In this document: in pieces, positions 40,192-63,464 of the stretch
How positions within the stretch are numbered: the stretch's first letter is position 1
Layout: every line of letters starts with the position of its first letter
DNA from: a virus
Length of the DNA stretch: 64,000 nucleotides
IMG/VR virus record: IMGVR_UViG_3300017917_003339
Span: 1-64,000 of that record
Strand: one strand, 5' to 3'
Translations under genes and position numbers: made by a program
Notes under the pieces: generated by a model
What the model was told of the DNA's origin: nothing
What the model saw: only the letters and a program-made list of their open reading frames with translations
Databases searched by the model: none

Positions 40192-40316
40192 TGGAGGGGG
40201 CGGGAATCGAACCACGCGTTTTTCAAATTTACAGTTTGCTTGATAATAAATTTATTTGCTGCAAACATTCTTTAACAGAAGCAGAATGTGTGTTTAACCA
40301 ACATTTCAACCCCTCC
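40192..40316 (-). ncRNA. tRNA-Tyr(GTA)-like RNA with helix+CAGCAA insertion
   Basis: GGAGGGG/CCCCTCC acceptor, T arm, CAAA-CTGTAAA-TTTG; insert ACATTCT..AGAATGT-TTGCAGCAA. Confidence 0.7.
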
Positions 40317-40325: not shown

Positions 40326-40438
40326 AGCCTAGCAGAGGACTCGAACCTCTCCTTATTCACCTAACGCAGCTTGTACAATGCCACTTGGTTCTCTTTCTGC
40401 TGGGATTTGCAGCGTGCTCCCTGATACACTAACTAGGC
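40326..40438 (-). ncRNA. tRNA-like RNA (Thr-type body) with expanded central region containing CCCAGCAG
   Basis: GCCTAGT/GCTAGGC acceptor, D arm GTGT/GCAC, T arm AGAGG-TTCGAGT-CCTCT. Confidence 0.6.
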
Positions 40439-40456
40439 AAATTCATGAAGCTTTTT

Positions 40457-40544
40457 CACACCTGACAGGATTCGAACCTGCAATCTGGGGCTATCTAAAA
40501 CGCAAGTGCTGGGTCCCCATGTGATACCCTTTCACTACAAGCAT
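40457..40544 (-). ncRNA. tRNA-like RNA with 24-nt anticodon loop starting ACCCAGCAC
   Basis: D arm GTGA/TCAC, stem TGGGG/CCCCA, T arm GCAGG-TTCGAAT-CCTGT; weak acceptor. Confidence 0.6.
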
Positions 40545-40765
40545 AATACTCACTTCAAGACTACTCAGTACACGTACTAACCATACCTACGCATCTTTTT
40601 ACTCATTTACCATTCTTTACCGCTTTTTCCCAAAATACCTTATCATGCCCTTCCCATGATTTGGTTTTTAAAGCCTTTGCGTTTGATATATTCTGGAATA
40701 CTCACAGCACGCCTTGATAAACTTTCAATCAACTCTCAATATGCTTTTCAACATACCTTTCATAG

Positions 40766-43115: not shown

Positions 43116-43134
43116 AATACTTAAATTTAATTTG

Positions 43135-43207
43135 AGCACTAGACGGGCCTCGAACCCATGACCTCTCCCATACCAAGGGAGTGTTCTGCCTACTGAACTA
43201 CAAGTGC
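43135..43207 (-). tRNA. tRNA-Thr(GGT)
   Basis: CTCCC-TTGGTAT-GGGAG. Confidence 0.88.
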
Positions 43208-43213
43208 ATTTAG

Positions 43214-43287
43214 AGCCTCCGACAGGAATCGAACCTGCGACCTTCTCCTTACAAGGGAGTTGCTCTGGCCTGCTGAGCTACGGAGGC
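43214..43287 (-). tRNA. tRNA-Thr(TGT)
   Basis: CTCC-CTTGTAA-GGAG. Confidence 0.9.
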
Positions 43288-43351
43288 ATAACGGCCTATA
43301 ACGTTTGCCATTCGGTGCATTTTGTTTCTCGCAGAACACTTACTGCTTGTG

Positions 43352-43434
43352 TGAGAGTAGTAGGATTCGAACCTACTCAGGCATAGCCAACGGTTTTACA
43401 GACCGCCCCAGCTCTCCAACTCTGGCGTACTCCC
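43352..43434 (-). tRNA. tRNA-Tyr(GTA)
   Basis: GCGGT-CTGTAAA-ACCGT with long variable arm. Confidence 0.9.
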
Positions 43435-43443
43435 AATATTTAG

Positions 43444-43522
43444 TGGGCCTAGTAGGAATCGAACCTACAAGAATTAACACGATTTTACAGACCGCTGAGC
43501 TCACCACCTGCTCAATAGACCC
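43444..43522 (-). tRNA. tRNA-Tyr(GTA)
   Basis: GCGGT-CTGTAAA-ATCGT. Confidence 0.85.
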
Positions 43523-43527
43523 AAGTT

Positions 43528-43589
43528 CAGGGTGGTGTATCGGTTTCAAATTAAAAGTTTGATGATAATGATTGCTGAAACCACCCTTT
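43528..43589 (-). ncRNA. Helix+CAGCAA RNA presenting an isolated Lys(TTT) anticodon stem-loop
   Basis: AGGGTGGT-TTCAGCAA...TCAAA-CTTTTAA-TTTGA...ACCACCCT-G. Confidence 0.7.
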
Positions 43590-43591
43590 AG

Positions 43592-43663
43592 TTGGAGGAT
43601 AGGGACTCGAACCCTAAAAACGACAGTCAAAGTGTCGTATGTTGCCAATTACATCATCCTCCA
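43592..43663 (-). tRNA. tRNA-Gln(TTG)
   Basis: CGACA-CTTTGAC-TGTCG. Confidence 0.88.
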
Positions 43664-43672
43664 ATATGTTAG

Positions 43673-43754
43673 TTGGGAAAGAGGGACTCGAACCCCCATG
43701 TACTTCGCGTCTTCTGGCTCAAAACCAGAGGTGTTACCATTACACCATTTCCCA
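43673..43754 (-). tRNA. tRNA-Gln(TTG) with long variable region
   Basis: TCTGG-TTTTGAG-CCAGA; 15-nt variable region. Confidence 0.8.
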
Positions 43755-43812
43755 AAATTTCTAATTCTATGCTTGTCCTCACGCAACTCTATGAATTAGT
43801 AACAGTCTCATC
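43755..43812 (-). repeat. Conserved inter-tRNA element, copy 1
   Basis: GATGAGACTGTTA-CTAATTC-ATAG..GCATA-GAATTAG-AAATTT. Confidence 0.8.
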
Positions 43813-43817
43813 AACTG

Positions 43818-43890
43818 AGCGGAAGACGGGACTCGAACCCGCAACCCCCGACTTGGAAGGACGGTGCTCTACCAATTGAGCTACTTCCGC
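43818..43890 (-). tRNA. tRNA-Gly(TCC)
   Basis: GCGGAAG acceptor; loop CTTCCAA. Confidence 0.9.
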
Positions 43891-43952
43891 AAATTTTTAA
43901 TTCTATGCAGACACTTACAAATGGGCCCCTATGAATTAATAACAGTCTCTTC
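43891..43952 (-). repeat. Conserved inter-tRNA element, copy 2
   Basis: GAAGAGACTGTTA-TTAATTC-ATAG..GCATA-GAATTAA-AAATTT. Confidence 0.8.
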
Positions 43953-43955
43953 TCG

Positions 43956-44031
43956 TCGGGATGACTGGACTCGAACCAGCATGATGTCCTGCTCCCAAAG
44001 CAGGCGACTTAACCAATTAGTCCACATCCCG
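43956..44031 (-). tRNA. tRNA-Pro(TGG)
   Basis: CCTGC-TTTGGGA-GCAGG; C1-G72, A73. Confidence 0.9.
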
Positions 44032-44568
44032 TTTAAATTTTTCTACATATTCTAAAACCGTTTCTTCTATTAAATTTCTATACCTACTATGCCAATAAGC
44101 ATGATGTGTTGCACATAGAGGTATTAAATTCTCAGGTTTATTATTGTTTCTATCCCCATCTAAATGGTGAACATCTAACAATAATTTTTCATCACAAACA
44201 ACACATTTATGTTCGTGGTGTAAGAAACATGTTGACCTGTATGCATGTTCTTTCCAGTTTGGGTTTTTATCACCACTTCTAAAGAAAGAGTTTGCACAAG
44301 CATGAGAACATGTAATTTTTTCTCTTTTTGAACCTGATTGAGTTTCAAATTCATTCTCACAAACAGGACAAATTTTAATTATTCGTTCATATTTGAGAAA
44401 ATGTTTTTTCTTTCTATTAGGTTCAAATTTTAAACCATTTATTTCAAATAACGCATCTAACTTTTTATACCCAGCACCATTATTGCTGATATTTAACCTT
44501 TTACAAGCTTCATTTTTAGAACTACATTCTAGTATAATTTTTTCTAATTCTTCTTTTTCGATATTCAT
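44017..44568 (-). CDS. HNH homing endonuclease
   Basis: CPVC, CSHAC, CVVC..DVHHLDGDRNNNKPENLIPLCATHH; stop lies inside tRNA-Pro. Confidence 0.88.
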   Translation of the reverse strand: MNIEKEELEKIILECSSKNEACKRLNISNNGAGYKKLDALFEINGLKFEPNRKKKHFLKYERIIKICPVCENEFETQSGSKREKITCSHACANSFFRSGDKNPNWKEHAYRSTCFLHHEHKCVVCDEKLLLDVHHLDGDRNNNKPENLIPLCATHHAYWHSRYRNLIEETVLEYVEKFKRDVD

Positions 44569-44631
44569 AACTTATTTTTATTATAAATATCATCAAATGT
44601 CGAAAAAATCACTTTTGGGAAATTTTATTTT

Positions 44632-44675
44632 CTGCATCCCAAATGCAGCGGATTAGCCAACTTTCCCACTACCCG
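44632..44675 (-). pseudogene. Truncated tRNA-Pro(TGG), 5' two-thirds only
   Basis: CGGGTAG, D arm, CTGCA-TTTGGGA-TGCAG, then no T arm. Confidence 0.8.
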
Positions 44676-44684
44676 TAATATTTG

Positions 44685-44758
44685 TACCCCCGAAGGGACT
44701 CGAACCCATGACCCCCCGCTTAAAAGGCGGGTGCTCTAACCAACTGAGCTACGAAGGC
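44685..44758 (-). tRNA. tRNA-Lys(TTT)
   Basis: CCCGC-CTTTTAA-GCGGG. Confidence 0.9.
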
Positions 44759-44763
44759 ATTTG

Positions 44764-44836
44764 TTCCCCCGACGGGCCTCGAACCCGCTACCCACTGGTT
44801 AAAAGCCAGTTGCCCGTCCACATGAGCTTCGAAGGA
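44764..44836 (-). tRNA. tRNA-Lys(TTT)
   Basis: ACTGG-CTTTTAA-CCAGT. Confidence 0.88.
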
Positions 44837-44853
44837 ATTTATATTTCTATTTG

Positions 44854-44925
44854 TTCCCCCGCCCAGAGTCGAACTGGATTCCGTAGATTAAAAGTCTACT
44901 GCATCACCACCAATGCTTCGAGGGA
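44854..44925 (-). tRNA. tRNA-Lys(TTT)
   Basis: GTAGA-CTTTTAA-TCTAC. Confidence 0.85.
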
Positions 44926-45009
44926 ATATGTATCTTGCCCCTCAAAACATTGAGGGAATTACTGTTTACTCTTTATCTTCTTTATTGTTTTCATTGTTTT
45001 TATTTTATT

Positions 45010-45087
45010 TGGCCTCCCAGAAGGATTCGAACCTTCCATCCATAAGCCCCCAATGGGCTGCGCTTTTCCTACTAAGCTATGGGACGC
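45010..45087 (-). ncRNA. Atypical tRNA-like gene (loop CATTGGG; Gln/Pro-like)
   Basis: D and T arms intact, CCA encoded; non-canonical anticodon loop and acceptor top. Confidence 0.55.
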
Positions 45088-45101
45088 ATATTTTATTTTT
45101 G

Positions 45102-45196
45102 TCTGGTAAACAGGATTCGAACCTGTGGTAGACACTACCTTTGTGCCCACATCGGATTCCAAGTCCGACCGCTTAAACCATCTCGCGCATTACCAG
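45102..45196 (-). tRNA. tRNA-Pro(TGG) with long (class II-like) variable arm
   Basis: CTGGTAA/TTACCAG, A73; TCGGA-CTTGGAA-TCCGA; 25-nt variable arm. Confidence 0.75.
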
Positions 45197-47151: not shown

Positions 47152-47973
47152 TTATGAGTTTAACAAAATTTCTTTCATTTCAGTCACTAACTTTCTATGA
47201 CCCTCACCGTACTGTGTCCAAGCCAACCCCATTTGTTTTAGGTCATAGTGTTTCAATACTGTACTGTAGTCTTCAACACCCTCTGGTCTACCGATGATAT
47301 AGATACTGTCAGCTAATTCAGCCGCAAGTCTAATATCGTGTGTTGAGAACATAATGGTGTTAGACTCATGTGCAGCACCAATTCTTTCAAAGGATTGTTT
47401 AACCTTTTCAATGTTACCAACATCCAAACCAGAGAATGGTTCATCAAGAATCATAAAGTGTTTGTTGGTAAGCATTTGCTCAATAATCGCTGTGCGCTGT
47501 CTTTGACCACCCGACAATTCACAAGGGTATTTGTCTTTGTGTTCTAACAACCCCCATTCAGTTAAGTAATCCGTGATGATTGTGTCCTTTTCAGCTTTTG
47601 ATAAGTTTGATTTACGCATAGCGTATTGACAAATCTGAGTCACGGTCTTGTGTCTGAAAAGCGTGTATTTTTGGTCCACAAAACCTACATCACCCTCATC
47701 AAGTTGTTTGGCATCATTCACATCGTCTGTGTTCATGTTGGCCAAAAGGATTTGGCCAGATATTGGTTTTAACAACCCAGTTAACACTTTAAACAATGTT
47801 GATTTACCACGTCCAGAACGACCTAATACTGCAATCACTTGACCAGTTGAGTCGATGTCTTTTCTGATAACATTCTTTTCAATAATGCTAATGTCTTTGA
47901 TGATAACCTTACCATCGTAGCCAGCGCTTACGTTATCAACGTATAATAGCGTTTCATTTGTTGTATATGGCAT
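47152..47973 (-). CDS. ABC transporter ATP-binding protein (TauB/SsuB-like)
   Basis: GRSGRGKST, LSGGQRQR, LDEPFSGLD, THD. Confidence 0.92.
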   Translation of the reverse strand: MPYTTNETLLYVDNVSAGYDGKVIIKDISIIEKNVIRKDIDSTGQVIAVLGRSGRGKSTLFKVLTGLLKPISGQILLANMNTDDVNDAKQLDEGDVGFVDQKYTLFRHKTVTQICQYAMRKSNLSKAEKDTIITDYLTEWGLLEHKDKYPCELSGGQRQRTAIIEQMLTNKHFMILDEPFSGLDVGNIEKVKQSFERIGAAHESNTIMFSTHDIRLAAELADSIYIIGRPEGVEDYSTVLKHYDLKQMGLAWTQYGEGHRKLVTEMKEILLNS

Positions 47974-47984
47974 AATTCTTAGTT

Positions 47985-48764
47985 TTAGAAGTTAGAATAT
48001 CTGAAAATTAACTTTCTTAATTTAGTCATTAAGAAGTCCAATAAAATCCCTACAAGGATAATAACAATCTGTACCGCAATAACTCTACCGTTATCACCCA
48101 CTTTGTCACCATTTTTGATAAGTACACCCAAACCACCAGCAGCGATAAGGATACTTTCAATACTTACAAGCATCATCCATACAATCGCAAGGTTTTGTCT
48201 TACCAATTCAAATACGTAGTCAAAACGACCTTTGATTACCACTTCCCAAAGCATTTCCCATCTGTTACAACCCAACGTTCTAGCATGGTCAAATTCTTCT
48301 TGTGGAATGTCTTTAATCATCTGTACAAGGCTTGTAATCAAATAAGTCGACATGAACATTACAAGCACCCATACTTGGATAGTTCTTGCGCTAGAAAGGA
48401 TAATAGTAATGTAGAACGTAATACCAGCCAGAGGTAAGAATCTAAGTTTTGAAATGAAATCAGCCCAACCCTTAAAGAATGGCAACGTACTCAAATAGGT
48501 GAAAAACAAAGAGATAATCACCGATAGTACAACAGCTTGAGCACACAATGACAAAGAACTGAACAAATGTACAATAAGACCATCGTTCCAGATTGTACTA
48601 AAACCCTTCAACACCTGTGCTGGTGTTGGAAACAAATTTGTCGTCCCAGTAGACGATAAACCCCAAAAAGCAAACAATAGACCTAACCAAATGGTCAGCA
48701 TCAATGTTTTACTAGAACCCTTTACTGACTGAAAGGGGATAAACATTTTCAATACGTTTTTCAT
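47985..48764 (-). CDS. ABC transporter permease (TauC/SsuC-like)
   Basis: FPTPAQV, ARTLG EAA-like loop, GGLG. Confidence 0.88.
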   Translation of the reverse strand: MKNVLKMFIPFQSVKGSSKTLMLTIWLGLLFAFWGLSSTGTTNLFPTPAQVLKGFSTIWNDGLIVHLFSSLSLCAQAVVLSVIISLFFTYLSTLPFFKGWADFISKLRFLPLAGITFYITIILSSARTIQVWVLVMFMSTYLITSLVQMIKDIPQEEFDHARTLGCNRWEMLWEVVIKGRFDYVFELVRQNLAIVWMMLVSIESILIAAGGLGVLIKNGDKVGDNGRVIAVQIVIILVGILLDFLMTKLRKLIFRYSNF

Positions 48765-48878
48765 TATTGTTATTTTTAAATTCTTTACAAAAATACGATT
48801 TAATTTCCATTCTACCAAATAATTAGGTAAAAAAAAAAATCCCTGATTTCTCAGGGACTTTTTAATTAAGCATAAGCA

Positions 48879-50693
48879 TTATTTCAAGAGAGTAATTTCT
48901 ACACGTCTGTTTTTAGCTTTACCTGACACGGTGTTGTTGTCACCGATAGGTTGAGTATCACCTCTACCGTCTACCAATTGGAAACGTTCTTTTGAGATAC
49001 CACGGCTAGTTAAGTATTCAACTACTGAGTTAGCACGACCTCTAGACAATACTAAGTTTGAATCTGGGTTACCTACGTTGTCAGTGTGACCAACAATTTT
49101 AAGTTTAGTTTCCTCAGCTTGAACTAACAAGTTGTAAATGGTTTCTAAGTCTTTTTCGGAACCTTGGATAGCAGTACTACCAGTTGCGAAGTTGATATTC
49201 CATTGACCGTTAGCCAATACTTTAGTTTTTGTTTCAGCATATGAAATCTTTTCAACTTTACCAGCATCACCGATGTTGATTGATTTCAAGAAGTACAAGT
49301 TAACTGCATCATCGTAAGGTACTACACCGTCAGGACACATACCGTTGAAATCCATAGGGTTCAAGTCGGTTAAGTAAGCAGAAACTTGGTCGTACACAGC
49401 TTTATATCTGTTGTTACCGTCAGAGATACCGTTGTATTGCATCGCATCAGCGTAGTTGAATACTCTTGTACCACCGATATCGTAACCTAAACCAGCTTTG
49501 GTACCTTTTTGCCCTTTGAACATGTTGTACCAATATTCAGGTGTTTCAGCATTGTATGTTTTAGCGACACATTCAGCAGCTTTACGAGCCCACTCGTCAT
49601 ATTGTTTGATTTGGTTACAAGCCACGTAAGTTTGTTTCAATAAGTTGATAACTTCTTTATCGTGTTGTACAGCCCACTCTTTGATGATTACAAGTGTAGT
49701 AGCCATTTGATTTACGAACTCTTTAGTTGATACCACATCGGTGAAACCTGTTAGAGCATCGAAAGCCATTTTGTCACCTGGAGTCCACGTAGTGGCACCA
49801 TCAATTTTACGGTTAACTGTTTTACCAGTCAATTTACCATCTTTAACCTCTTTCAAAGGCACAGTGTAACCTGCGGTTTGAGATTTAATTAAGTCTTTTA
49901 CAGACTCAATGAAATCATCGTTTGGTGATGGAACGAAGTTAATCGCATTAGGGTCGTAAGTTTTAGGGTCTGGGTTTACTGGAATTTTGTTAGCGAACGC
50001 ATAGTTACAAGCTACAACCCAGTCACCGTCACCGATTACAGAAGAGATAACACAACCTTTCATCGATTGAGGATTATCTTTCCAAATTTGTGGACCAATC
50101 AACTTGTCCTCACCGTATGATAAACCATATTGTGCGATAGCTTGAACGTGGTATTTACCCTTACCGAATTTTTCGTCTAATGATTTCTGAGTAGTTGTGA
50201 TATAGAACGGTACACCATCACCCATGATAGATACAGCTACAGCTGATTTATCAGATTTAGGATAAGCGGCACCACCGTCAAATTCCTCAACAAACTTGAT
50301 TTGCATATCACGTAAACCACCAACCATGTCTTGACGAACGATTTCTAAGTTTACACCTGCGGCTTCCATAAGTGACCCCTCAGTTGTACGAGGACCACCG
50401 TTGGCTACAATCATACCAGAGTTACCATTCCATGCATACTCTGCAATTCTAATAAGACCTTTTGAAGCAACTTCACTTGATGGAGCGCTAGATGGCAAAG
50501 GCAATTTAGCACCAGCCGTTACGTTGTTCAAGTTTTCGGAATTAAGTTCCAAACCACCAAGGGTTTTTGAAACTTCCACTCGTAGACCTGGTGAAACGAA
50601 ATACACCACAGCCATTACCAATACTGCTCCAAGAGCAACTAAAGCACCTTCTGCGAAGGTTGTCAATTTCTGAATTTTAAGGATTCTTCCCAT
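48879..50693 (-). CDS. Substrate-binding-like protein fused to OmpA C-terminal domain
   Basis: N-terminal TM; INFATGS, VGHTDNVG..NLVLSRGRA, NRRVEI. Confidence 0.85.
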   Translation of the reverse strand: MGRILKIQKLTTFAEGALVALGAVLVMAVVYFVSPGLRVEVSKTLGGLELNSENLNNVTAGAKLPLPSSAPSSEVASKGLIRIAEYAWNGNSGMIVANGGPRTTEGSLMEAAGVNLEIVRQDMVGGLRDMQIKFVEEFDGGAAYPKSDKSAVAVSIMGDGVPFYITTTQKSLDEKFGKGKYHVQAIAQYGLSYGEDKLIGPQIWKDNPQSMKGCVISSVIGDGDWVVACNYAFANKIPVNPDPKTYDPNAINFVPSPNDDFIESVKDLIKSQTAGYTVPLKEVKDGKLTGKTVNRKIDGATTWTPGDKMAFDALTGFTDVVSTKEFVNQMATTLVIIKEWAVQHDKEVINLLKQTYVACNQIKQYDEWARKAAECVAKTYNAETPEYWYNMFKGQKGTKAGLGYDIGGTRVFNYADAMQYNGISDGNNRYKAVYDQVSAYLTDLNPMDFNGMCPDGVVPYDDAVNLYFLKSINIGDAGKVEKISYAETKTKVLANGQWNINFATGSTAIQGSEKDLETIYNLLVQAEETKLKIVGHTDNVGNPDSNLVLSRGRANSVVEYLTSRGISKERFQLVDGRGDTQPIGDNNTVSGKAKNRRVEITLLK

Positions 50694-53120: not shown

Positions 53121-53276
53121 TATAGGCAACAAGATTAACTTTTTAATACGCGCTCTAAACCAACTGAGCTACCACCCGAAATCTTTAATCTAGTTGGGTG
53201 GGAAGGACTCGAACCTCCGACCTCGTGCTTAAGAGGCTATTGATTTAAATTGCTGAAATAATCTTTTATACCTATT
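53121..53276 (-). ncRNA. Circularly permuted tRNA-Lys(CTT) enclosed by helix+CAGCAA module
   Basis: 3' half (53194-53237) is transcribed before 5' half (53148-53178); joining CGT|GC gives CGTGC-CTCTTAA-GCACG. Confidence 0.8.
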
Positions 53277-53458: not shown

Positions 53459-53479
53459 ATTTAAAAATTAATAATTTAG

Positions 53480-53556
53480 TCGAGGAGAAGGGACTCGAAC
53501 CCTTCAGCAACTAGTATACACCCCGCAATGAGGCTGCCGCACCAATACCATCCCCG
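53480..53556 (-). ncRNA. tRNA-like RNA lacking D stem, with G3.U70 and A73
   Basis: CGGGGA/TCCTCG-A acceptor, AAGGG-TTCGAGT-CCCTT T arm, GGCAGC/GTTGCT helix. Confidence 0.55.
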
Positions 53557-53729
53557 TGTTTTGGTGCTAACTTTCCCACGATAGCACCGTTGCAGTCTTT
53601 TCTTTGGGAGAGGGTCCGAACTGCAAACCCAGAAGTTGTAGCACTTCCTCAGCTGTTACGCTCATTTCCTTTTAACACCTTCCATGGTATGTTAAAATTC
53701 TTTACGTAAGTGTAACCGTCTTACTGTAG

Positions 53730-53802
53730 TGGTACCGACTGGAATCGAACCAGTGACACATGGATTTTCAGTCCATTGCTCTACCAACTGAGCTACGGTA
53801 CC
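53730..53802 (-). tRNA. tRNA-Phe(GAA)
   Basis: ATGGA-CTGAAAA-TCCAT. Confidence 0.92.
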
Positions 53803-54030
53803 TTGAATGGATAAACATTTCCAAGTGTTTACCCTAGCAGTTTTTACGCACTAGCACGGCTAAAAAACTACAAAAAACCTACTCGATGTTTTATGCTTGG
53901 ACAAGGGGCTGCACGAGCAACAACCCAGTTGTTCTGGTACAACTTTAAACCCCAAACTTGAGTCGTTGGCACTGAGTCAATAGTTCCGACACAAAGATTC
54001 CTAGGTTTTTGTGTGTTTCCTATTTAGTCG

Positions 54031-54107
54031 TGGGGGAAGCTGGACTCGAACCAGCGACCTTTCGCTCTCCTAAGACAGCGAACATCTGCCAACTGAAATA
54101 TTCCCCC
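54031..54107 (-). ncRNA. tRNA-like RNA with enlarged anticodon arm
   Basis: GGGGGAA/TTCCCCC; TTCGCT-GTCTTAGGAG-AGCGAA. Confidence 0.65.
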
Positions 54108-58317: not shown

Positions 58318-58842
58318 CTAAACAGACATCCTTTTAACCATCTTTCTGTATATTCTATCTTCAAAATCTTTCATCAAAGAATCTGGGATTCTAATTCCTT
58401 TAGATTCGAATTCACCTATAATCTCACGTTTAAGAAATGTACCCTCAACAATTCCATCACCCCATTGGTCACACCAAAGTCCCCAGCTTTTCTTACCAAC
58501 AATCACAGCCTTGACTATGTTTGGGTGTCTGGTTACTATGGGTTTTCCACCAGAGTATTGTCCGTTATCGAATTTTCTAAATGTGTTTTTACCTTCGGAT
58601 TCATTGACATCAAATTCAACATTGACGATAGAACCGCAAAAGGTAAGAATACCTTTCCTATAAGAAGATAGAAAGAAATTGAAGATTTCATTGAAGTTGT
58701 CGGAATACTTTGATAACTTTCTATCAAGTCTGTTACCAGTTTCCTTTTTGCGTAATTCAATACGCTCTTGTTTTGTTAGGCTCCCAAGCGGTCGCCTCCT
58801 GATTGTGTTGTTTTCATATTCTTGTGTTTTTTGTTTAACCAA
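58318..58842 (-). CDS. Hypothetical protein
   Basis: ORF on coding strand. Confidence 0.5.
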   Translation of the reverse strand: MVKQKTQEYENNTIRRRPLGSLTKQERIELRKKETGNRLDRKLSKYSDNFNEIFNFFLSSYRKGILTFCGSIVNVEFDVNESEGKNTFRKFDNGQYSGGKPIVTRHPNIVKAVIVGKKSWGLWCDQWGDGIVEGTFLKREIIGEFESKGIRIPDSLMKDFEDRIYRKMVKRMSV

Positions 58843-59579
58843 TTTAATTTATTCAAGTCAATACTTGAATTAGATTTTACAATATGACCATCTGGAAAAT
58901 GTTTTATCATATCAGACATACTCAATACTGGAAAATCTTTGTCAAAGTTTGCGTTTGGATGTGACCAACCAAATTTAAACAACCAATTCAACAACGCATC
59001 AACATCATAGTCATTATAATCATCCGTAGTACAGTTACCAGTTCTTTTAGATAACTTACTACCCTTATAAAACAATAAACCAGCATGTTGAACATTTGGA
59101 AATTGTTTTTGACCATATACGTTGCAAATCATATCCCACAACTTTTGTTGTTTTGGTAAATTTGTAATGTGGTCCACACCTCTGATTATGTCTGTAATGT
59201 CATAATCATAGTCATCTAATATCGAAGCAAAATTATAGGTTGGATAACCGTTATCTCTAAGGATAACCATATCGTAATCTCCCATGTTTACGTTTAACGT
59301 ACCATCGTCTTTTTTAAACCCTATAGCTGTTGCCACTTGTTTGTATCGGTCAAGTCTGCTACTTTGCTTAAATGTTACATCATAATTTAACCCAAAGTAA
59401 TTCATTTGTTGATATATGAAATCTACATCTGAATCATTGTTCCTAGACAAATCTGTGTCATCGATTCTAAGGATAAAATTACCATCATTTGATTTACTCA
59501 ATAAATAATTGAATAAAGCAGTACGTAATGTCCCTAAATGAAATTTGCCCGTTGGTGAAGGGGCAATTCTTGTTTTCAT
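58776..59579 (-). CDS. Truncated glutamyl-tRNA synthetase-like protein (GluQ/YadB-like catalytic domain)
   Basis: TRIAPSPTG.FHLGTLRTA, LRIDDTD, PTYNFA, IRGVDH, KLSKR; no anticodon-binding domain. Confidence 0.85.
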   Translation of the reverse strand: MKTRIAPSPTGKFHLGTLRTALFNYLLSKSNDGNFILRIDDTDLSRNNDSDVDFIYQQMNYFGLNYDVTFKQSSRLDRYKQVATAIGFKKDDGTLNVNMGDYDMVILRDNGYPTYNFASILDDYDYDITDIIRGVDHITNLPKQQKLWDMICNVYGQKQFPNVQHAGLLFYKGSKLSKRTGNCTTDDYNDYDVDALLNWLFKFGWSHPNANFDKDFPVLSMSDMIKHFPDGHIVKSNSSIDLNKLNWLNKKHKNMKTTQSGGDRLGA

Positions 59580-59600
59580 AATACTATTTTTTATATTTTG

Positions 59601-59673
59601 TGGAGCTGACGGGAGTTGAACCCGCATCCTCTACCTTGCAAAGGTAGCGCTCAGCCAGTTGAGCTACAGCCCC
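59601..59673 (-). tRNA. tRNA-Ala(TGC)
   Basis: G3.U70; CTACC-TTTGCAA-GGTAG. Confidence 0.9.
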
Positions 59674-59674
59674 A

Positions 59675-59731
59675 AAATTTCTAATTCTACGCTTACAATA
59701 TGTAGTTCTATGAATTAGTAACAGTCTCATC
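59675..59731 (-). repeat. Conserved inter-tRNA element, copy 3
   Basis: GATGAGACTGTTA-CTAATTC-ATAG..GCGTA-GAATTAG-AAATTT. Confidence 0.8.
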
Positions 59732-59735
59732 TGTG

Positions 59736-59856
59736 CGGACGCAGTGGGACTCGAACCCACAGCTTTTTCGTGACAGGAAAATTAACTAATGCTGCTGGAG
59801 ATAACCTTGTCAGGTTATGACTTGTTTTTAACATGTTACCCTTACACCATACGTCC
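59736..59856 (-). ncRNA. tRNA-Asp(GTC) with ~50-nt helix+CAGCAG insertion before the anticodon stem
   Basis: GGACGTA/TGCGTCC-G73; TTTTC-CTGTCAC-GAAAA; insert ATAACCT-GACA-AGGTTAT-CTCCAGCAG. Confidence 0.8.
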
Positions 59857-59994
59857 AAAAATACCTTTACATTTCAAAGGTTAAGCAGGTTTAGTTGCGG
59901 ACTTTCCTTCCAGTCAGTGCTTCTTTTTCCAGAGATTGCCTCTATACGCACGTTATCTGACAATTTTAACACGAAGCGACCGTGTTAGCAATCG

Positions 59995-60068
59995 TGGAGA
60001 CTGCGGGAGTCGAACCCGCGACCTTCTGCGTGCAAGGCAGACGCTCTAGCCAGCTGAGCTAAGTCCCC
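59995..60068 (-). tRNA. tRNA-Ala(TGC)
   Basis: TCTGC-CTTGCAC-GCAGA; G3.U70. Confidence 0.92.
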
Positions 60069-60078
60069 AAATATTTTA

Positions 60079-60149
60079 GAAGCGCAATTGGTTTCGAACC
60101 AATGTTTCCAGCTACGCGCCAGCGTCCTAAGCCCCTAGACGATACACTT
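60079..60149 (-). ncRNA. tRNA-like RNA (Glu-type D arm) with 5-nt loop
   Basis: GTCTAG..AGGAC; CTGGC-GCGTA-GCTGG; ATTGG-TTCGAAA-CCAAT. Confidence 0.55.
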
Positions 60150-60251
60150 TAACTACTCTCAATACAACTGCCATCATATATTGAGTAGAATGGCCTTGTT
60201 ACTTCACCTTTCAGTTGGCAGACCTACTTGGTTTTTCACTCACCTTTTTTG

Positions 60252-60325
60252 CCGAGATACTGGGATTCGAACCCAGTTCGCACGCCGTGACAGGGCGGCA
60301 TCCTTCGCCAGTGGACCTTACCTCG
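60252..60325 (-). tRNA. tRNA-Asp(GTC)
   Basis: CGCC-CTGTCAC-GGCG; G73. Confidence 0.82.
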
Positions 60326-60331
60326 AATCTA

Positions 60332-60408
60332 TGGCGGTCTGTACGGGACTCGAACCCGTGACCTTCGCCGTGACAGGGCGACATTGTAACCAACTCTACT
60401 AACAGACC
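60332..60408 (-). tRNA. tRNA-Asp(GTC)
   Basis: TCGCC-CTGTCAC-GGCGA; GCCA end. Confidence 0.92.
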
Positions 60409-60414
60409 AAATAT

Positions 60415-60490
60415 TGGTAGTCTGTACGGGATTCGAACCCGTGTTTTACCCGTGAAAGGGGCACGTCCTGACCAACTAGACGAACAGACC
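60415..60490 (-). tRNA. tRNA-Glu(TTC)
   Basis: TGCCC-CTTTCAC-GGGTA; CCA encoded. Confidence 0.9.
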
Positions 60491-60524
60491 ATTTAGATTT
60501 TTGATTACTGGAATCTTAACCAGA

Positions 60525-61163
60525 TTATTTTCTCCCTTTTAACCAACCTTCGTTTAAATAAGTTTCAAGGTCTTCTTTTTTAATTTTTTTGTTAGTACCA
60601 TCCTTGGTTATCCAACATGTACCATATTGACTGTTTGTTTCACCAGTCCCAGTACCTTTTCTTTTTTCTGATATTAATTGTTTAGTTTCTTCCGAATGAC
60701 ATTTACCTTCAAAAGTATTATAATTAATTTTACCTAATTTATGTGCTTTTTTTAATGTTTCAGATGATATTTCTGTATGTTTTTTAAAAAACTCTTCATC
60801 AATTTTTAATTTGTCAGAAAACGCTTTTCCACCAGCCTTAATACATTTCTCCATATGTTCTTTATTAGCAAAACCACCTTGACCACCTTCTTTTAAATTC
60901 ATACATAAACCATCAGATATCAACTCTTTTGTTATAATTTCAATCTCTCTAAGAACTAATTTTTCTCTTGTTGGTAAAAATTCTAATATTTCTTTTGTAT
61001 GGTTTTCAACACCATATTTCCTAATACTATATCTTAATATCTTACCACTTCCCATGTAACCGTCATCTAATTTCGTAGTTGAATGCATTCCAATATACCA
61101 TCTTCCTGTTACATTACATGTTGTTTTATATATGTAATGTATATTTGCTTTTTTTCTTGCCAT
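60525..61163 (-). CDS. GIY-YIG (Seg-like) homing endonuclease with NUMOD3-like region
   Basis: YIYKTT..TGRWYIG.H..YMGSG...NLKEGG; HSEETKQLISEK. Confidence 0.88.
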   Translation of the reverse strand: MARKKANIHYIYKTTCNVTGRWYIGMHSTTKLDDGYMGSGKILRYSIRKYGVENHTKEILEFLPTREKLVLREIEIITKELISDGLCMNLKEGGQGGFANKEHMEKCIKAGGKAFSDKLKIDEEFFKKHTEISSETLKKAHKLGKINYNTFEGKCHSEETKQLISEKRKGTGTGETNSQYGTCWITKDGTNKKIKKEDLETYLNEGWLKGRK

Positions 61164-61220
61164 TTCAGTTTATCTTTAATAATAAATATCAAGATAAACT
61201 GAAAAGTACAAAAAAGTTTA

Positions 61221-61299
61221 TGGTAGCCTCGACGGGGCTCGAACCCGCATTGCACACCTTGAAAGGATGGCTTCCTAGTCCGATTTAGAAGACAAGGCC
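61221..61299 (-). tRNA. tRNA-Glu(TTC)
   Basis: loop CTTTCAA; imperfect anticodon stem; CCA encoded. Confidence 0.78.
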
Positions 61300-61356
61300 A
61301 TGTTTATCGTTTCGGTTACCCCCACGCAGTGCACTTACGCAGGGACCTACTCCTTG

Positions 61357-61520
61357 TAGGAATGAGTGGATTCGAACCACTGACCTTCTCCCTTATGATG
61401 GGAGTCGTTCTGAATGTGTTTTTTCAACCAACTTAATGGTAATTCATTAAGCACACACCCCGATTGTTGTTATTTACCATCTCCTTAAGGAGCCAATCAG
61501 ACCGCTGAACGTACATTCCT
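61357..61520 (-). ncRNA. tRNA(CAT), Ile2/Met, with ~90-nt structured insertion in the D loop
   Basis: AGGAATG/CATTCCT; GTTC..GAAC D stem split by insert; CTCCC-ATCATAA-GGGAG. Confidence 0.75.
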
Positions 61521-61522
61521 AG

Positions 61523-61595
61523 TGGTACCTCCCAGATTCGAACTGGGGACACCTGCATCTTCAGTGCAGTGCTCTACCAACTGAGCTAAGGTACC
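61523..61595 (-). tRNA. tRNA-Phe(GAA)
   Basis: CTGCA-CTGAAGA-TGCAG. Confidence 0.92.
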
Positions 61596-61605
61596 TTTTA
61601 ATTTC

Positions 61606-61640
61606 GTTGCAAAGATACAACTTATTTTTTAATCTCCAAA
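61606..61640 (-). promoter_or_regulatory. Internal host-type promoter (TTTG..TATCTTTG)
   Basis: TTTGGAGATTAAAAAATAAGTTGTATCTTTGCAAC. Confidence 0.55.
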
Positions 61641-61674
61641 TTTTCAATGAACTTTTTTTATTTTTTTTTTCTTG

Positions 61675-61745
61675 TGGAATCAACGGGAGTCGACCCCGTG
61701 TCTCTGGCTCTTCAGGCCAGCGCTAAACCCCTCAGCTATGACTCC
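61675..61745 (-). tRNA. tRNA-Phe(GAA), variant T loop
   Basis: CTGGC-CTGAAGA-GCCAG; T loop GTCGACT. Confidence 0.8.
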
Positions 61746-61758
61746 AATTTTTGTACAT

Positions 61759-61789
61759 AAAAAAAGCCTGACTTATTAGGGTCAGGCTT
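61759..61789 (-). terminator. Attenuator terminator B
   Basis: AAGCCTGAC-CCTAATAA-GTCAGGCTT-TTTTT just 5' of first tRNA-Phe. Confidence 0.88.
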
Positions 61790-61817
61790 GTTACTATGGT
61801 TGAGTTATTTCTAACTG

Positions 61818-61907
61818 TTAACTATTGGCAACACACGACCCTCCAGAAGAGCAATCCTCCTCGGCAGCAAAAAATGCAAAATCAAATATGTTAGCAAAAG
61901 TTCTCAT
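61818..61907 (-). CDS. Leader peptide B (29 aa) MRTFANIFDFAFFAAEEDCSSGGSCVANS
   Basis: Manual translation; codons 4-18 almost only F,A,D,E,I; contains antiterminator AGGGTCG. Confidence 0.85.
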   Translation of the reverse strand: MRTFANIFDFAFFAAEEDCSSGGSCVANS

Positions 61908-61924
61908 AGTAATATTTTTATGTT

Positions 61925-62015
61925 TGTTTATAAATATGTTCTTTTTTTAAAAAGTTTATTTTTTGTTTGTTTTTAAATTCTTTGCAAATATACGAACTAT
62001 TTTAATACTAGTCAA
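61925..62015 (-). promoter_or_regulatory. Dual promoter of leader B
   Basis: TTGAC at 62011-62015, TATATTTG at 61985-61992, ACATATTTATAAAC near 61926-61939. Confidence 0.7.
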
Positions 62016-62042
62016 GTTTTTTTGCAACTTTTTTAAATTATT

Positions 62043-62630
62043 TTATAATTCGTTGTTTCTCAATTGATTAAGATAAGCTTCCATTTCATCTTTTTCATCG
62101 TATTTGAATGTTTTTAACACTCTCACGCTTTTGGTTGAAATTGATTTACCACCAGCTGCTCCTTTCCTAACATATATTCTATCAGAATCTAACTGATGTG
62201 CTGGTACAGCTTGATAGTAATATTTAGGGTCTAAATATGCCATTGGTATTATGATTTCAATAACTGCATAATCTGGACCTTCAAATTCTTCTGTCATGTT
62301 GAATAAATCATCGTGGTGTTTATGTTTGAATTTAACACCTAAGTCAGTCATCATAGAAGGAACGTATTTTGCATCTGGATGTTGTTGTTTAATATACTGC
62401 ATCATCTTAGAACCAATTCCTAACCTTCTATATTTTGGTAAGACTATAATATTACCAACAGTCAATTCACCATCGTATATTGTGTATTGTACCATTCCAA
62501 GAATGTCATCATTCAAATACACACCCAACTCATAATCATCTTGACCATGGTGATAACCCATGTGTTCTGTTCTATAATCTAACTCGCCAGTGAGCCCTTC
62601 TCTTAACAATTTTTTTATTAGTGCTTTCAT
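62043..62630 (-). CDS. GNAT-domain late protein
   Basis: MKALIKKLLREG; PKYRRLGIGSKMM. Confidence 0.7.
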   Translation of the reverse strand: MKALIKKLLREGLTGELDYRTEHMGYHHGQDDYELGVYLNDDILGMVQYTIYDGELTVGNIIVLPKYRRLGIGSKMMQYIKQQHPDAKYVPSMMTDLGVKFKHKHHDDLFNMTEEFEGPDYAVIEIIIPMAYLDPKYYYQAVPAHQLDSDRIYVRKGAAGGKSISTKSVRVLKTFKYDEKDEMEAYLNQLRNNEL

Positions 62631-62659
62631 ACTAATAAATATGTCAAAGAATTGATTTG

Positions 62660-62742
62660 TACCGCTGACTGGACTCGAACCAGCACACCCTTTCGGGCAC
62701 CAGATTCTTAGTCTGGCGTGTCTACCATTCCACCACAGCGGC
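62660..62742 (-). tRNA. tRNA-Leu(AAG)
   Basis: CCAGA-CTAAGAA-TCTGG; long variable arm. Confidence 0.88.
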
Positions 62743-62747
62743 AGGTA

Positions 62748-62836
62748 CAAGATAGTTAATTTTGTGGATTTGAACCACTTCGTTCGCATTTTAAGTGTGA
62801 ATTTTTAACCAATTTTGTTTGCTGAAACTATCTTTT
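62748..62836 (-). ncRNA. Helix+CAGCAA RNA with Leu(TAA) anticodon hairpin and T arm but no acceptor stem
   Basis: AAGATAGTT-TCAGCAA..TTCACA-CTTAAAA-TGCGAA..GTGG-TTCAAAT-CCAC..AACTATCTT-G. Confidence 0.72.
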
Positions 62837-62837
62837 G

Positions 62838-62912
62838 TAGGTCTGGAGGGATTCGAACCCCCGACTTTTTCCTTGTAAGAGAAACACTCTGAACCAACTG
62901 AGTTACAGACCC
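62838..62912 (-). tRNA. tRNA-Val(TAC)
   Basis: TTTCT-CTTACAA-GGAAA. Confidence 0.9.
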
Positions 62913-62921
62913 ATTATATTG

Positions 62922-63004
62922 TACCGCTGGCGAGACTCGAACTCGCACGCTTATTTCAGCACTGGTTTCTAAGACCAGCGGGTCTACCATTCCCCCACAG
63001 CGGC
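62922..63004 (-). tRNA. tRNA-Leu(TAG)
   Basis: CTGGT-CTTAGAA-ACCAG. Confidence 0.92.
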
Positions 63005-63014
63005 ATATATGATG

Positions 63015-63155
63015 TTAAGCTTCTTCTAGCTCAACATCTTCAATTTCTTTATCTTGTTCTAATTTTTTAGCACATGTAATGTGCATAAATTTTTTGTCTA
63101 CTACTAAAGCAGCACCGTGGATAACACCACCACATTCACAACAATTAAACTTCAT
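63015..63155 (-). CDS. Small Zn-binding protein (46 aa)
   Basis: MKFNCCECGG...MHITC. Confidence 0.55.
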   Translation of the reverse strand: MKFNCCECGGVIHGAALVVDKKFMHITCAKKLEQDKEIEDVELEEA

Positions 63156-63188
63156 ACTTCCATAATTTTAATTAACACGTTATTTTTG

Positions 63189-63272
63189 TAGCCAGAGTGG
63201 GAATCGAACCCACACGTCCTTGCGGACACCAGATTTTGAGTCTGGCGCGTCTACCAATTCCGCCATCTGGCC
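63189..63272 (-). tRNA. tRNA-Leu(CAA)
   Basis: CCAGA-CTCAAAA-TCTGG. Confidence 0.92.
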
Positions 63273-63277
63273 AGTTG

Positions 63278-63363: not shown

Positions 63364-63464
63364 ATTTATGTGTTGTGAGAACTGTACCGTAGGCTATTCT
63401 CCGCATACCACATGGGTATTGTTCTATCGCCATAGCAGCCTCCATAAAGGACAACACATATTTT

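What the first reader, a model, noticed from the sequence alone, without database searches (positions are those of the whole stretch)
43528..43589. Minimal helix+CAGCAA RNA displaying only a Lys(UUU) anticodon stem-loop
The 8-bp helix AGGGTGGT/ACCACCCT followed by TTCAGCAA encloses TCAAA-CTTTTAA-TTTGA, a canonical 5-bp/7-nt anticodon hairpin with no other tRNA parts. It lies inside the Lys-containing attenuated array. tRNA-Lys(UUU) is the known target of PrrC and PARIS AriB. Inference: an anticodon decoy or protein-tethered bait.
Basis: partly seen in the sequence, partly recalled or inferred. Interest (0 to 1): 0.75.

Follow-up and report, generated by a model that had tools for sequence, protein, structure and literature searches.

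The report
Minimal partner RNA of phage Ro60-like protein
This 59-base RNA gene in a giant phage's tRNA cluster is real and conserved; it most likely carries the binding "handle" for a Ro60-shaped phage protein joined to a copy of the lysine tRNA anticodon arm, a kind of Y RNA that I found in neither Rfam nor the papers searched.

Summary
On the minus strand at 43587-43529 lie an 8-bp closing helix, UUCAGCAA, a 5-bp/7-nt hairpin with loop CUUUUAA, and the helix's 3' strand followed by G.

It is not a decayed tRNA. Orthologues sit in the same Gln-Tyr slot of related 230-370 kb phages. In 58 distinct sequences all 8 helix pairs covary, and CAGCAA is invariant.

The same "helix + CAGCAA" handle clamps other cargoes in this window:
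- a permuted, YrlA-like tRNA body (53265-53131)
- a T arm plus a Leu-like loop (62834-62749)

The handle travels with a DUF2828/DUF7788 gene.
- All 27 large or complete phage records tested that carry the RNA also carry the gene.
- In 41 of 80 loci chosen for the gene, a handle RNA lies within 500 nt on the same strand.
- The protein's model matches Ro60/TROVE structures over its whole length.

The gene is absent from this incomplete contig. By synteny it should lie beyond the contig's end.

Best reading: a minimal Y-RNA-like partner of a divergent phage Ro60, displaying a tRNA-Lys anticodon arm. The decoy idea is untested.

This scan found the same family earlier on other DNA. I found no paper or Rfam family for it.

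The parts
43529..43587 (-). Whole minimal handle RNA (59 nt): P1 helix, CAGCAA motif, Lys-type anticodon-arm hairpin
   Evidence: Covariance model R1 scores 77.4 bits. Covariation.
43580..43587 (-). P1 5' strand, AGGGUGGU
   Evidence: Pairs with 43529-43536. All 8 pairs covary across 58 sequences. RNAalifold predicts this helix on its own.
43572..43579 (-). UUCAGCAA. CAGCAA is invariant and single-stranded, directly 3' of the P1 5' strand. Proposed binding motif for the Ro60-like protein.
   Evidence: Invariant columns. The wider family reads (U/A)(U/A)C(A/C)GCAA. Its position matches the CGAA/GNCGAA motif of Y RNAs (PMC4201824; PMC12135203).
43546..43562 (-). Anticodon-arm look-alike: stem UCAAA/UUUGA (43558-43562 with 43546-43550) and loop CUUUUAA (43551-43557), identical to the loops of the phage's three tRNA-Lys(UUU) genes
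   Evidence: Stem pairs covary: 3 of 5 and 4 of 5. The loop is conserved. It is not predicted by energy alone.
43539..43566 (-). Possible 3-bp extension P1.1: AUC (43564-43566) with GAU (43539-43541), around an A / AACC internal loop
   Evidence: Read from the sequence. Many distant members have AGC/GCU at the same place. Not tested statistically.
43528..43536 (-). P1 3' strand ACCACCCU plus the conserved G that follows it
   Evidence: G follows P1 in 134 of 196 regex-detected elements.
53131..53265 (-). Sibling. The same handle (AAGAUUA/UAAUCUU + UUUCAGCAA) clamps a circularly permuted tRNA-like body: T arm, acceptor closed by a loop, then D arm.
   Evidence: Rfam YrlA scores 34.7 bits, E 3.7e-6, below the gathering score of 69. 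Orthologues.
62749..62834 (-). Sibling. Handle (AAGAUAGUU/AACUAUCUU + UCAGCAA) with a Leu(UAA)-like loop and a T arm.
   Evidence: R1 scores 26.3 bits.
40192..40316 (-). tRNA-Tyr(GUA)-like gene with the handle as a closed hairpin (ACAUUCU...AGAAUGU + UUGCAGCAA) between the D arm and the anticodon arm
   Evidence: The same hairpin and motif occur in L011, L015, L023 and L025.
59736..59856 (-). tRNA-Asp(GUC)-like gene with a closed hairpin (AUAACC...GGUUAU) + CUCCAGCAG at the same place
   Evidence: Rfam tRNA scores 39.9 bits. Relatives read UUCAGCAU or UGCAGCAU, and one carries a Glu loop.

Best explanation
**What it is.** The element is a small non-coding RNA of about 60-70 nt, co-transcribed with the tRNA array. 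I infer that it is cut out by the enzymes that trim its neighbours: RNase P at the 5' end of tRNA-Tyr, and 3' trimming of tRNA-Gln.

**Part one, the handle.** This is the closing helix P1 plus the single-stranded CAGCAA beside its 5' strand. It is most likely the binding site of a divergent Ro60-like ring protein (Pfam DUF2828 + DUF7788; helical-repeat ring plus a vWA domain with a MIDAS motif). Every sufficiently complete relative of this phage encodes that protein. The handle plays the part that the basal stem with the CGAA/GNCGAA motif plays in Y RNAs.

**Part two, the cargo.** This is a look-alike of the tRNA-Lys(UUU) anticodon stem-loop. By analogy with Y RNAs, which tether Ro60 to other proteins or gate its RNA-binding cavity, the Lys arm would bring the ring protein together with something that reads the tRNA-Lys anticodon loop. 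Candidates are an anticodon nuclease, LysRS or a modification enzyme. It might instead present a bait loop to such a protein.

**Shown here.**
- the RNA structure and its conservation
- the shared handle
- the genomic linkage of handle RNAs to the gene
- the Ro60 fold of the modelled protein

**Inferred.**
- physical binding
- processing
- what the Lys arm is for; I put the nuclease decoy or bait version at roughly 0.25
For: **1. The RNA is real and under selection.** See for covariation. It keeps the same Gln-Tyr slot in the window, G001, L016 and L020.

**2. The handle is a module shared by different cargoes.** This holds in the window and in relatives. One case is a tandem array of seven units in L035.

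**3. From the RNA to the protein.** Among 118 loci holding the minimal RNA, the commonest neighbouring protein family is DUF2828/DUF7788, on the same strand in 27 loci. In L081, four handle RNAs lie just upstream of the gene, inside the tRNA array.

**4. At genome level.**
- 20 of 20 large phage records with the RNA carry exactly one such gene.
- So do G001-G005 and the complete records G027 and G028.

**5. From the protein to the RNA.** In 80 loci chosen for the protein:
- all 33 R1 matches lie on the gene's strand, and 28 of them within 400 nt of the gene
- a pattern search finds 73 handles on the gene strand against 7 on the other strand, and 41 of 80 loci have one within 500 nt
- no protein neighbour is comparably conserved

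**6. The closest relative.** G002, whose anchor protein is 95% identical, has a handle RNA 49 nt after the gene's stop codon.

**7. The protein's fold.** The AlphaFold model has pLDDT 81.8 and pTM 0.73. Its 12 best Foldseek matches are all Ro60/TROVE/Rsr over about 500 columns, with E 5e-11 to 3e-5 and TM up to 0.61. DxSxS is invariant.

**8. Same architecture as Y RNAs.**
- A 5'-3' stem flanks a large internal loop that holds a short conserved motif (PMC12135203).
- YrlA has a tRNA-like domain (PMC4201824).
- The sibling at 53131-53265 gives a sub-threshold YrlA match.
Against: - **No gene on this contig.** The 92.5-kb contig has no DUF2828/DUF7788 gene. It is only 26% complete. By synteny with G002 the gene would lie about 16 kb beyond its end (coordinates; the Rnl1 gene confirms the synteny). 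For this genome the partner is therefore extrapolated.
- **Different motif.** The motif is CAGCAA, not CGAA/GNCGAA. Neither Pfam TROVE nor a sequence profile against PDB recognises the protein. The kinship to Ro60 rests on a predicted fold.
- **Shared descent.** Co-occurrence could partly reflect common ancestry of these phages.
- **No direct evidence.** There is no binding or expression evidence.
- **Weak hairpin.** The Lys hairpin is thermodynamically weak.
- **Mixed cargoes.** Handle RNAs next to the gene often carry cargoes that are not anticodon-like. Anticodon display is therefore not a general property of the family.
Confidence: 0.68

Rival explanations
1. It is a free-standing anticodon-nuclease decoy. 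The Lys loop soaks up or inhibits PrrC-, RloC- or AriB-type nucleases by itself. The helix and CAGCAA serve only stability or processing and have no Ro60-like partner.
For: - The Lys loop is conserved in 14 of 15 unbiased orthologues and is identical to the phage's tRNA-Lys loops.
- The phage keeps three tRNA-Lys(UUU) genes and a T4 Rnl1-family ligase. Both fit pressure on tRNA-Lys.
- Phage tRNA-Lys is known to counter PARIS (PMC11464382, listed).
Against: - It does not explain why CAGCAA is invariant across cargoes that have no anticodon loop.
- It does not explain why handle RNAs sit next to the Ro60-like gene on its strand.
- One orthologue shows a Pro loop instead (L016).
- No nuclease test was possible.
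Confidence: 0.1
2. The handle binds some other protein, for example a host or phage RRM-type or RNase-type factor. The linkage to DUF2828/DUF7788 then reflects shared regulation or ancestry, not binding.
For: - Dictyostelid Class I RNAs have a very similar layout: 42-65 nt, a short stem joining the ends, a conserved motif beside the 5' stem strand, start AAG and end CUGU. One of them directly binds an RRM protein, Rnp1A (PMC7919456).
- In this phage lineage most handle RNAs lie in tRNA arrays, kilobases from the gene.
Against: - Adjacency within a few hundred nt on the same strand recurs in lineages whose proteins are only 44-60% identical.
- No other conserved neighbour exists.
- Ro60 relatives are the proteins known to use stem-plus-motif RNAs encoded next door.
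Confidence: 0.12
3. It is a processing or punctuation element of the polycistronic tRNA precursor. The helix and the A-rich flanks guide RNase E, RNase P or exonucleases, and the RNA has no function after release.
For: - It sits 1-6 nt from its tRNA neighbours.
- Units in L035 are separated by GA(A)AAUAA-like spacers.
Against: - The loop sequence and CAGCAA are conserved far beyond what a spacer needs.
- Many family members lie outside tRNA arrays, next to the Ro60-like gene.
Confidence: 0.05
4. It is a decaying tRNA-Lys pseudogene, or a working 'armless' tRNA.
For: - It occupies a tRNA-sized slot in the array and keeps a canonical Lys anticodon loop.
- UUCAGCAA could descend from tRNA positions 8-15. 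This is inference only.
Against: - Compensatory changes in all P1 pairs show selection for this structure.
- It has no D arm, no T arm and no discriminator/CCA-type end; a conserved G follows a flush 8-bp helix.
- ARAGORN and the Rfam tRNA model do not score it.
Confidence: 0.02

Closest known systems
Y RNAs of bacterial and phage Ro60 (Rsr): YrlA/YrlB (Rfam RF02553; Chen et al. 2014, PMC4201824) and Yrl1/Yrl2 of Thermus phage phiLo (PMC12135203)
   Same: - Small RNAs whose 5' and 3' ends form a stem next to a large internal loop with a short conserved motif on the 5' side.
- Encoded beside or near a ring-shaped Ro60-type protein, often in several copies.
- The distal part mimics tRNA. The sibling at 53131-53265 has the permuted T arm - closed acceptor - D arm order of YrlA.
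   Different: - The motif is C(A/C)GCAA rather than CGAA/GNCGAA.
- The protein is DUF2828/DUF7788, which the Pfam TROVE model does not see.
- This member carries only an anticodon arm, which YrlA lacks, and no T or D arm.
- In this lineage the RNAs are scattered through tRNA arrays.
- Rfam YrlA does not match the element.
Ro60/TROVE proteins with solved structures (Xenopus 1YVP/1YVR, D. radiodurans Rsr 2NVO, phage phiLo 9KOP/9L5Y)
   Same: - The predicted fold of the linked phage protein matches them over its whole length.
- It is of similar size (about 480-600 aa) and has a vWA domain with DxSxS.
   Different: - Sequence identity is only 12-19%.
- There is no significant sequence-level match.
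- RNA binding by this family is untested.
Class I RNAs of dictyostelid social amoebae (Kjellin et al. 2021, PMC7919456)
   Same: As described in that paper, and as in the phage RNAs:
- about 60 nt
- a 6-bp covarying stem joining the ends
- a conserved motif directly after the 5' stem strand
- a variable remainder
- conserved AAG at the start and CUGU at the end; the phage RNAs read AAAG...CUG(U)
   Different: - They are eukaryotic, and their known direct binder is an RRM protein.
- The letters of their 11-nt motif are given only in figures I could not read. From memory it contains ACAGCAA; that was not checked here.
- No link to a Ro60-like protein has been reported.
T4 rnaC and rnaD (species 1 and 2 stable RNAs) in the T4 tRNA cluster
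   Same: Small stable RNAs of unknown function, encoded inside a phage tRNA array and released from the same precursor. rnaC ends in a T arm and an acceptor-like 3' end.
   Different: No P1 + CAGCAA handle is visible in them, and T4 has no known Ro60-like partner.
Phage tRNA-Lys variants that escape anticodon nucleases (T5 tRNA-Lys against PARIS, PMC11464382)
   Same: A phage-encoded RNA with the tRNA-Lys(UUU) anticodon loop, in a phage that multiplies its tRNA-Lys genes.
   Different: Those are complete, chargeable tRNAs that replace the cleaved host tRNA. This element cannot be charged and has a separate protein handle.

Membership tests
Y RNA (partner RNA of Ro60/Rsr) | The 5' and 3' ends pair into a basal stem that closes the RNA | tested here: met
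   P1 is 8 bp. All pairs covary in 58 sequences, and RNAalifold predicts it.
Y RNA (partner RNA of Ro60/Rsr) | Conserved Ro-binding motif CGAA / GNCGAA(N)G on the 5' side of the stem or internal loop | tested here: not met
   At that position stands an invariant CAGCAA (CCGCAA in some members), not CGAA. The position matches; the sequence does not.
Y RNA (partner RNA of Ro60/Rsr) | Encoded next to, or in the same genome as, a Ro60-type protein gene | tested here: inconclusive
   The gene is not on this 26%-complete contig. It is present in all 27 large relatives tested and adjacent in many lineages.
Y RNA (partner RNA of Ro60/Rsr) | Physically bound by the Ro60-type protein | not testable with these tools
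   Needs EMSA or co-purification.
YrlA (Rfam RF02553) | tRNA-like domain with T arm, closed acceptor stem and D arm, scoring over the gathering threshold | tested here: not met
   No YrlA match on the element even at E up to 10. The sibling at 53131-53265 scores 34.7 bits against a gathering score of 69.
tRNA | Cloverleaf with D and T arms, a 7-bp acceptor stem, a discriminator base and a CCA-type end | tested here: not met
   No call by ARAGORN or Rfam tRNA. 17 nt and 9 nt stand in place of the arms.
tRNA | Anticodon arm with a 5-bp stem and a 7-nt loop that has U33 and a purine at position 37 | tested here: met
   UCAAA / CUUUUAA / UUUGA. The loop equals that of the three tRNA-Lys genes.
Ro60/TROVE protein (for the linked DUF2828/DUF7788 gene of relatives) | Helical-repeat ring plus a vWA domain with MIDAS | tested here: met
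   The model of the G002 protein has all 12 best Foldseek matches among Ro60/TROVE/Rsr structures. DxSxS is invariant.
Ro60/TROVE protein (for the linked DUF2828/DUF7788 gene of relatives) | Match to Pfam TROVE (PF05731) | tested here: not met
   No match in G000-G004. The protein matches DUF2828 and DUF7788 instead.
Dictyostelid Class I RNA | 42-65 nt, a short stem joining the ends, an 11-nt motif beside the 5' stem strand, AAG start and CUGU end | tested here: inconclusive
   Layout and flanks agree with the description in PMC7919456. The motif's letters could not be read, and no amoeba sequence was compared.
Anticodon-nuclease decoy | Bound or cleaved by a tRNA-Lys anticodon nuclease, and protecting the phage | not testable with these tools
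   Context only.

The most novel reading that the evidence does not exclude
Giant phages use one Ro60-like ring protein with a kit of interchangeable 'handle' RNAs. Each RNA displays a different tRNA part.

This minimal member displays only the tRNA-Lys anticodon arm. It would act as a tethered bait that captures or senses host nucleases that cut tRNA-Lys, coupling that event to the ring protein and the phage's RNA-repair ligase.

The same handle may be shared with the unexplained Class I RNAs of social amoebae. That would point to an ancient, unrecognised branch of Ro60/Y-RNA particles.
Probability: 0.2. Interest if true: 0.85.

Novelty: new variant of a known kind. Interest (0 to 1): 0.65.

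Why it matters
- **A function for an unnamed protein family.** DUF2828/DUF7788 is very large: at least 7,961 proteins match at E <= 1e-10, and more than 533 viral contigs carry it. Every name I saw was "hypothetical" or "DUF". A likely RNA partner and a Ro60 fold give it a testable function.
- **Unannotated genes in tRNA clusters.** The tRNA arrays of giant phages contain non-tRNA genes that standard tools skip.
- **A simple test object.** The minimal Lys member is a 59-nt RNA with two separable parts. One part can be mutated to test protein binding. The other can be used to ask which anticodon-reading protein it meets, including the nucleases that bacteria use against phages.

Tried and rejected
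- **Canonical Rsr or RtcB partners.** Pfam TROVE and RtcB are absent from G000-G004.
- **tmRNA-like reading.** GCA might have been a resume codon, but the frames after GCA are inconsistent between copies, and ARAGORN calls no tmRNA here.
- **CAGCAA pairing in trans with UUGCUG.** One exact complement lies at 53503-53510, and one tRNA-Lys D loop in relatives contains it. Neither is conserved.
- **Permuted or split tRNA matured by splicing.** In relatives the acceptor of the permuted bodies is closed by tight or degenerate loops, and I saw no bulge-helix-bulge motif. I read them as YrlA-like mimics.
- **Retron-like ncRNA.** A helix followed by a conserved AGC resembles one. I considered this only and did not search for a reverse transcriptase.
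- **T4 rnaC and rnaD.** They show no shared handle.
- **Sequence-level kinship of the protein to solved structures.** Not significant.
- **Energy-based folding.** It does not recover the anticodon hairpin.
- **Rfam on the element alone.** Only chance-level matches.
- **Protein Atlas.** It added nothing on range beyond viruses.
- **Automated tally of anticodon loops.** It is noisy and biased by the fetch pattern. I did not use it for conclusions.

Full report
**Setting**

The window is the first 64 kb of a 92.5-kb IMG/VR viral contig. CheckV rates the contig 26% complete. It has 36% G+C, and its genes and tRNAs lie on the minus strand.

ARAGORN finds 32 tRNA genes and Rfam adds three aberrant ones. 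HNH and GIY-YIG homing endonucleases are scattered between them.

Relatives found through the OmpA-domain protein at 48879-50693 are metagenomic phage contigs of up to 368 kb. The only relative in GenBank's phage set is an uncultured 462-kb phage.

**The observation**

Read on the minus strand, 43587-43529 has these parts in order:
- AGGGUGGU
- UUCAGCAA
- a 9-nt linker
- UCAAA-CUUUUAA-UUUGA
- a 9-nt linker
- ACCACCCU, followed by G

The element exactly fills the gap between tRNA-Gln and tRNA-Tyr. No tRNA or Rfam family is called there. The loop is identical to the anticodon loops of the phage's three tRNA-Lys(UUU) genes.

**Is it more than chance or decay?**

Orthologues occur in most of the 34 related loci, and they keep the same Gln-Tyr slot. 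A covariance model built from 14 of them recovers 15 distinct orthologues.
- 92% of cells pair, against about 40% when partners are slid.
- 10 of 13 pairs change on both sides.

A pattern scan of IMG/VR returned more than 118 contigs. The model confirmed 80 matches, 58 of them distinct.
- All eight P1 pairs and four of five hairpin pairs change on both sides.
- 95.5% of cells pair, against 35-48% in controls.
- 0 of 500 shuffles reach this.

CAGCAA is invariant. The residues before it vary: UUU, CUU, AUA, AAA or UUG.

In the loop-unbiased set, 13 of 15 loops carry UUU, one CUU and one UGG. The most distant relative, L035, has two such elements in tandem, one with CUU and one with UUU.

Two caveats apply:
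- Energy alone predicts only P1.
- The 58-sequence set was fetched with the Lys loop fixed.

**The handle is modular**

In this window the same helix + (U)UUCAGCAA closes two other RNAs.
- 53265-53131 holds a permuted tRNA-like body: T arm, acceptor closed by a loop, then D arm. It gives a sub-threshold Rfam YrlA match of 34.7 bits (E 3.7e-6; gathering score 69).
- 62834-62749 holds a Leu-like loop plus a T arm.

Two tRNA-like genes, 40316-40192 (Tyr) and 59856-59736 (Asp), carry the handle in circularly permuted form. P1 is closed into a hairpin, followed by UUGCAGCAA or CUCCAGCAG, between the D arm and the anticodon arm. Relatives keep this arrangement.

Relatives show further cargoes. L035 has seven handle RNAs in tandem, followed by a terminator.

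**The partner gene**

I clustered the ORFs around the 118 RNA-bearing loci. The commonest neighbour was a family of about 460-600 aa on the same strand, present in 27 loci. It matches Pfam DUF2828 and DUF7788.

In L081 four handle RNAs lie directly upstream of this gene inside the tRNA array.

The gene is not on the window's contig. It is in all four large relatives, G001-G004.

In G002 the gene lies about 57 kb upstream of the anchor gene. That places it about 16 kb beyond the end of this contig. The Rnl1-family ligase gene falls roughly where the same synteny predicts, which supports the extrapolation.

Genome-level co-occurrence:
- Twenty of 20 further large records with the RNA have exactly one such gene.
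- Two complete, more distant relatives (G027, G028) and the fragment holding L035 have the gene with handle RNAs directly downstream.

The reverse test started from the protein. More than 533 viral contigs hold it. In the best 80 loci:
- all 33 model matches are on the gene's strand, 28 of them within 400 nt of the gene
- a pattern search gives 73 handles on that strand against 7 on the other
- 41 of 80 loci have a handle within 500 nt
- no protein neighbour is conserved to that degree

In G002 a 138-nt handle RNA starts 49 nt after the gene's stop codon.

**What the protein is**

Sequence searches against solved structures are not significant, and Pfam TROVE does not match.

An AlphaFold model built from 22 homologues has pLDDT 81.8 and pTM 0.73. 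Its 12 best Foldseek matches are all Ro60/TROVE/Rsr structures, aligned over about 500 columns (E 5e-11 to 3e-5, TM up to 0.61). They include the Ro60 of Thermus phage phiLo and Xenopus Ro60 bound to RNA.

The vWA MIDAS motif DxSxS is invariant. Public sources call the family "hypothetical" or "DUF2828".

**Comparison with what is known**

Y RNAs are encoded next to Ro60. Their ends form a stem, and they carry a short motif on the 5' side (GNCGAA; CGAA in phiLo). In bacteria and mycobacteriophages they have a tRNA-like domain (PMC4201824; PMC12135203).

They are thought to gate Ro60 or to tether it to partners such as PNPase. Jumbo phages are known to carry TROVE proteins occasionally (PMC7824862).

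The present family has the same layout and the same genomic logic. It differs in three ways:
- a different motif
- a protein family not recognised as TROVE
- cargoes that include a bare anticodon arm

I therefore file it as working like a Y RNA. I do not file it as a member of YrlA, because the motif and Rfam criteria are not met.

Dictyostelid Class I RNAs share the layout and the AAG...CUGU flanks (PMC7919456). I could not check their motif letters.

**Mechanism**

Steps that are shown:
- the RNA structure
- the modular handle
- the linkage to a Ro60-fold protein

Steps that are inferred:
- The protein binds P1 + CAGCAA.
- The RNA is released from the tRNA precursor.
- The Lys arm brings the ring protein together with a protein that reads the tRNA-Lys anticodon loop.

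The genome has three tRNA-Lys(UUU) genes and a T4 Rnl1-family RNA ligase. The T4 enzyme's known role is to mend tRNA-Lys cut by PrrC; that is established knowledge, not tested here. This makes a role in conflict over tRNA-Lys plausible. The decoy or bait idea remains a hypothesis at about 0.25.

**Earlier notes of this scan**

After I had reached this reading, a look-up showed that other agents had reported the same CAGCAA-handle/DUF2828 pairing on many other genomes. These are unchecked AI notes and not independent evidence. They agree with this reading, and one supplied the Class I RNA lead.

**Verdict**

- This is a new variant of a known kind, a Ro60/Y-RNA-type particle.

Noticed in passing
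window 53478-53730 (minus strand): A stretch of about 250 nt between tRNA-Phe and the permuted tRNA-like RNA ends in a good T arm (GAAGGGUUCGAGUCCCUUC) and an acceptor-like 3' strand. I saw no matching 5' acceptor strand, and neither Rfam nor ARAGORN calls anything there. It also holds the exact complement (UUGCUGAA) of the handle motif; relatives do not conserve that.
   Followed up: partly
window 40330-40545 (minus strand): Two more aberrant tRNA-like RNAs have long insertions. One scores 38.3 bits with Rfam tRNA at 40457-40544. The other has a roughly 50-nt extra region before a normal T arm. They lie just upstream of the Tyr-like gene that carries the handle.
   Followed up: no
G000 77423-78028 (minus strand, outside the window; locus L261): A T4 Rnl1-family RNA ligase gene (Pfam RNA_lig_T4_1, E 2.3e-15). 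Relatives G001-G004 also have it.
   Followed up: partly
window 58776-59627 (minus strand): A 283-aa protein has only the catalytic domain of class I Glu/Gln-tRNA synthetases (E 1.7e-46), the size and layout of glutamyl-queuosine tRNA-Asp synthetase. It lies downstream of the Asp(GUC)-like handle-carrying tRNA gene (59736-59856), with tRNA-Ala (59600-59673) in between.
   Followed up: no
window 43134-45196, 59600-63945: Most isoacceptors occur as two or three diverged copies side by side: Lys UUU x3, Gln UUG x3, and Tyr, Thr, Asp, Phe and Ala x2. One copy scores well and the others poorly with Rfam tRNA. Most genes end in N-A/U-C without an encoded CCA.
   Followed up: no
G001 224670-224885 (loci L049 and L050 region): A handle (AAGAUAG/CUAUCUU + GUCCAGCAA) encloses a 216-nt structured cargo of unknown kind at the head of the first tRNA array of the complete 368-kb relative.
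   Followed up: no
window 62043-62789 (minus strand): A GNAT acetyltransferase gene (248-aa ORF) lies inside the Leu/Val tRNA array. Its longest ORF starts inside the handle RNA at 62749-62834, so the true start is probably further downstream.
   Followed up: no
window 47152-50693 (minus strand): The phage carries an ABC-transporter ATPase, a permease-like membrane protein and a 604-aa protein with a C-terminal OmpA domain in a row. The last is well conserved across the phage group and served as the anchor.
   Followed up: no
window 54030-54107 and 61221-61299 (minus strand): ARAGORN gives odd calls: a tRNA with an irregular anticodon loop (two-base 'anticodon') and a 'tRNA-SeC(UCA)' of normal length that may be a suppressor-type or misread tRNA.
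   Followed up: no
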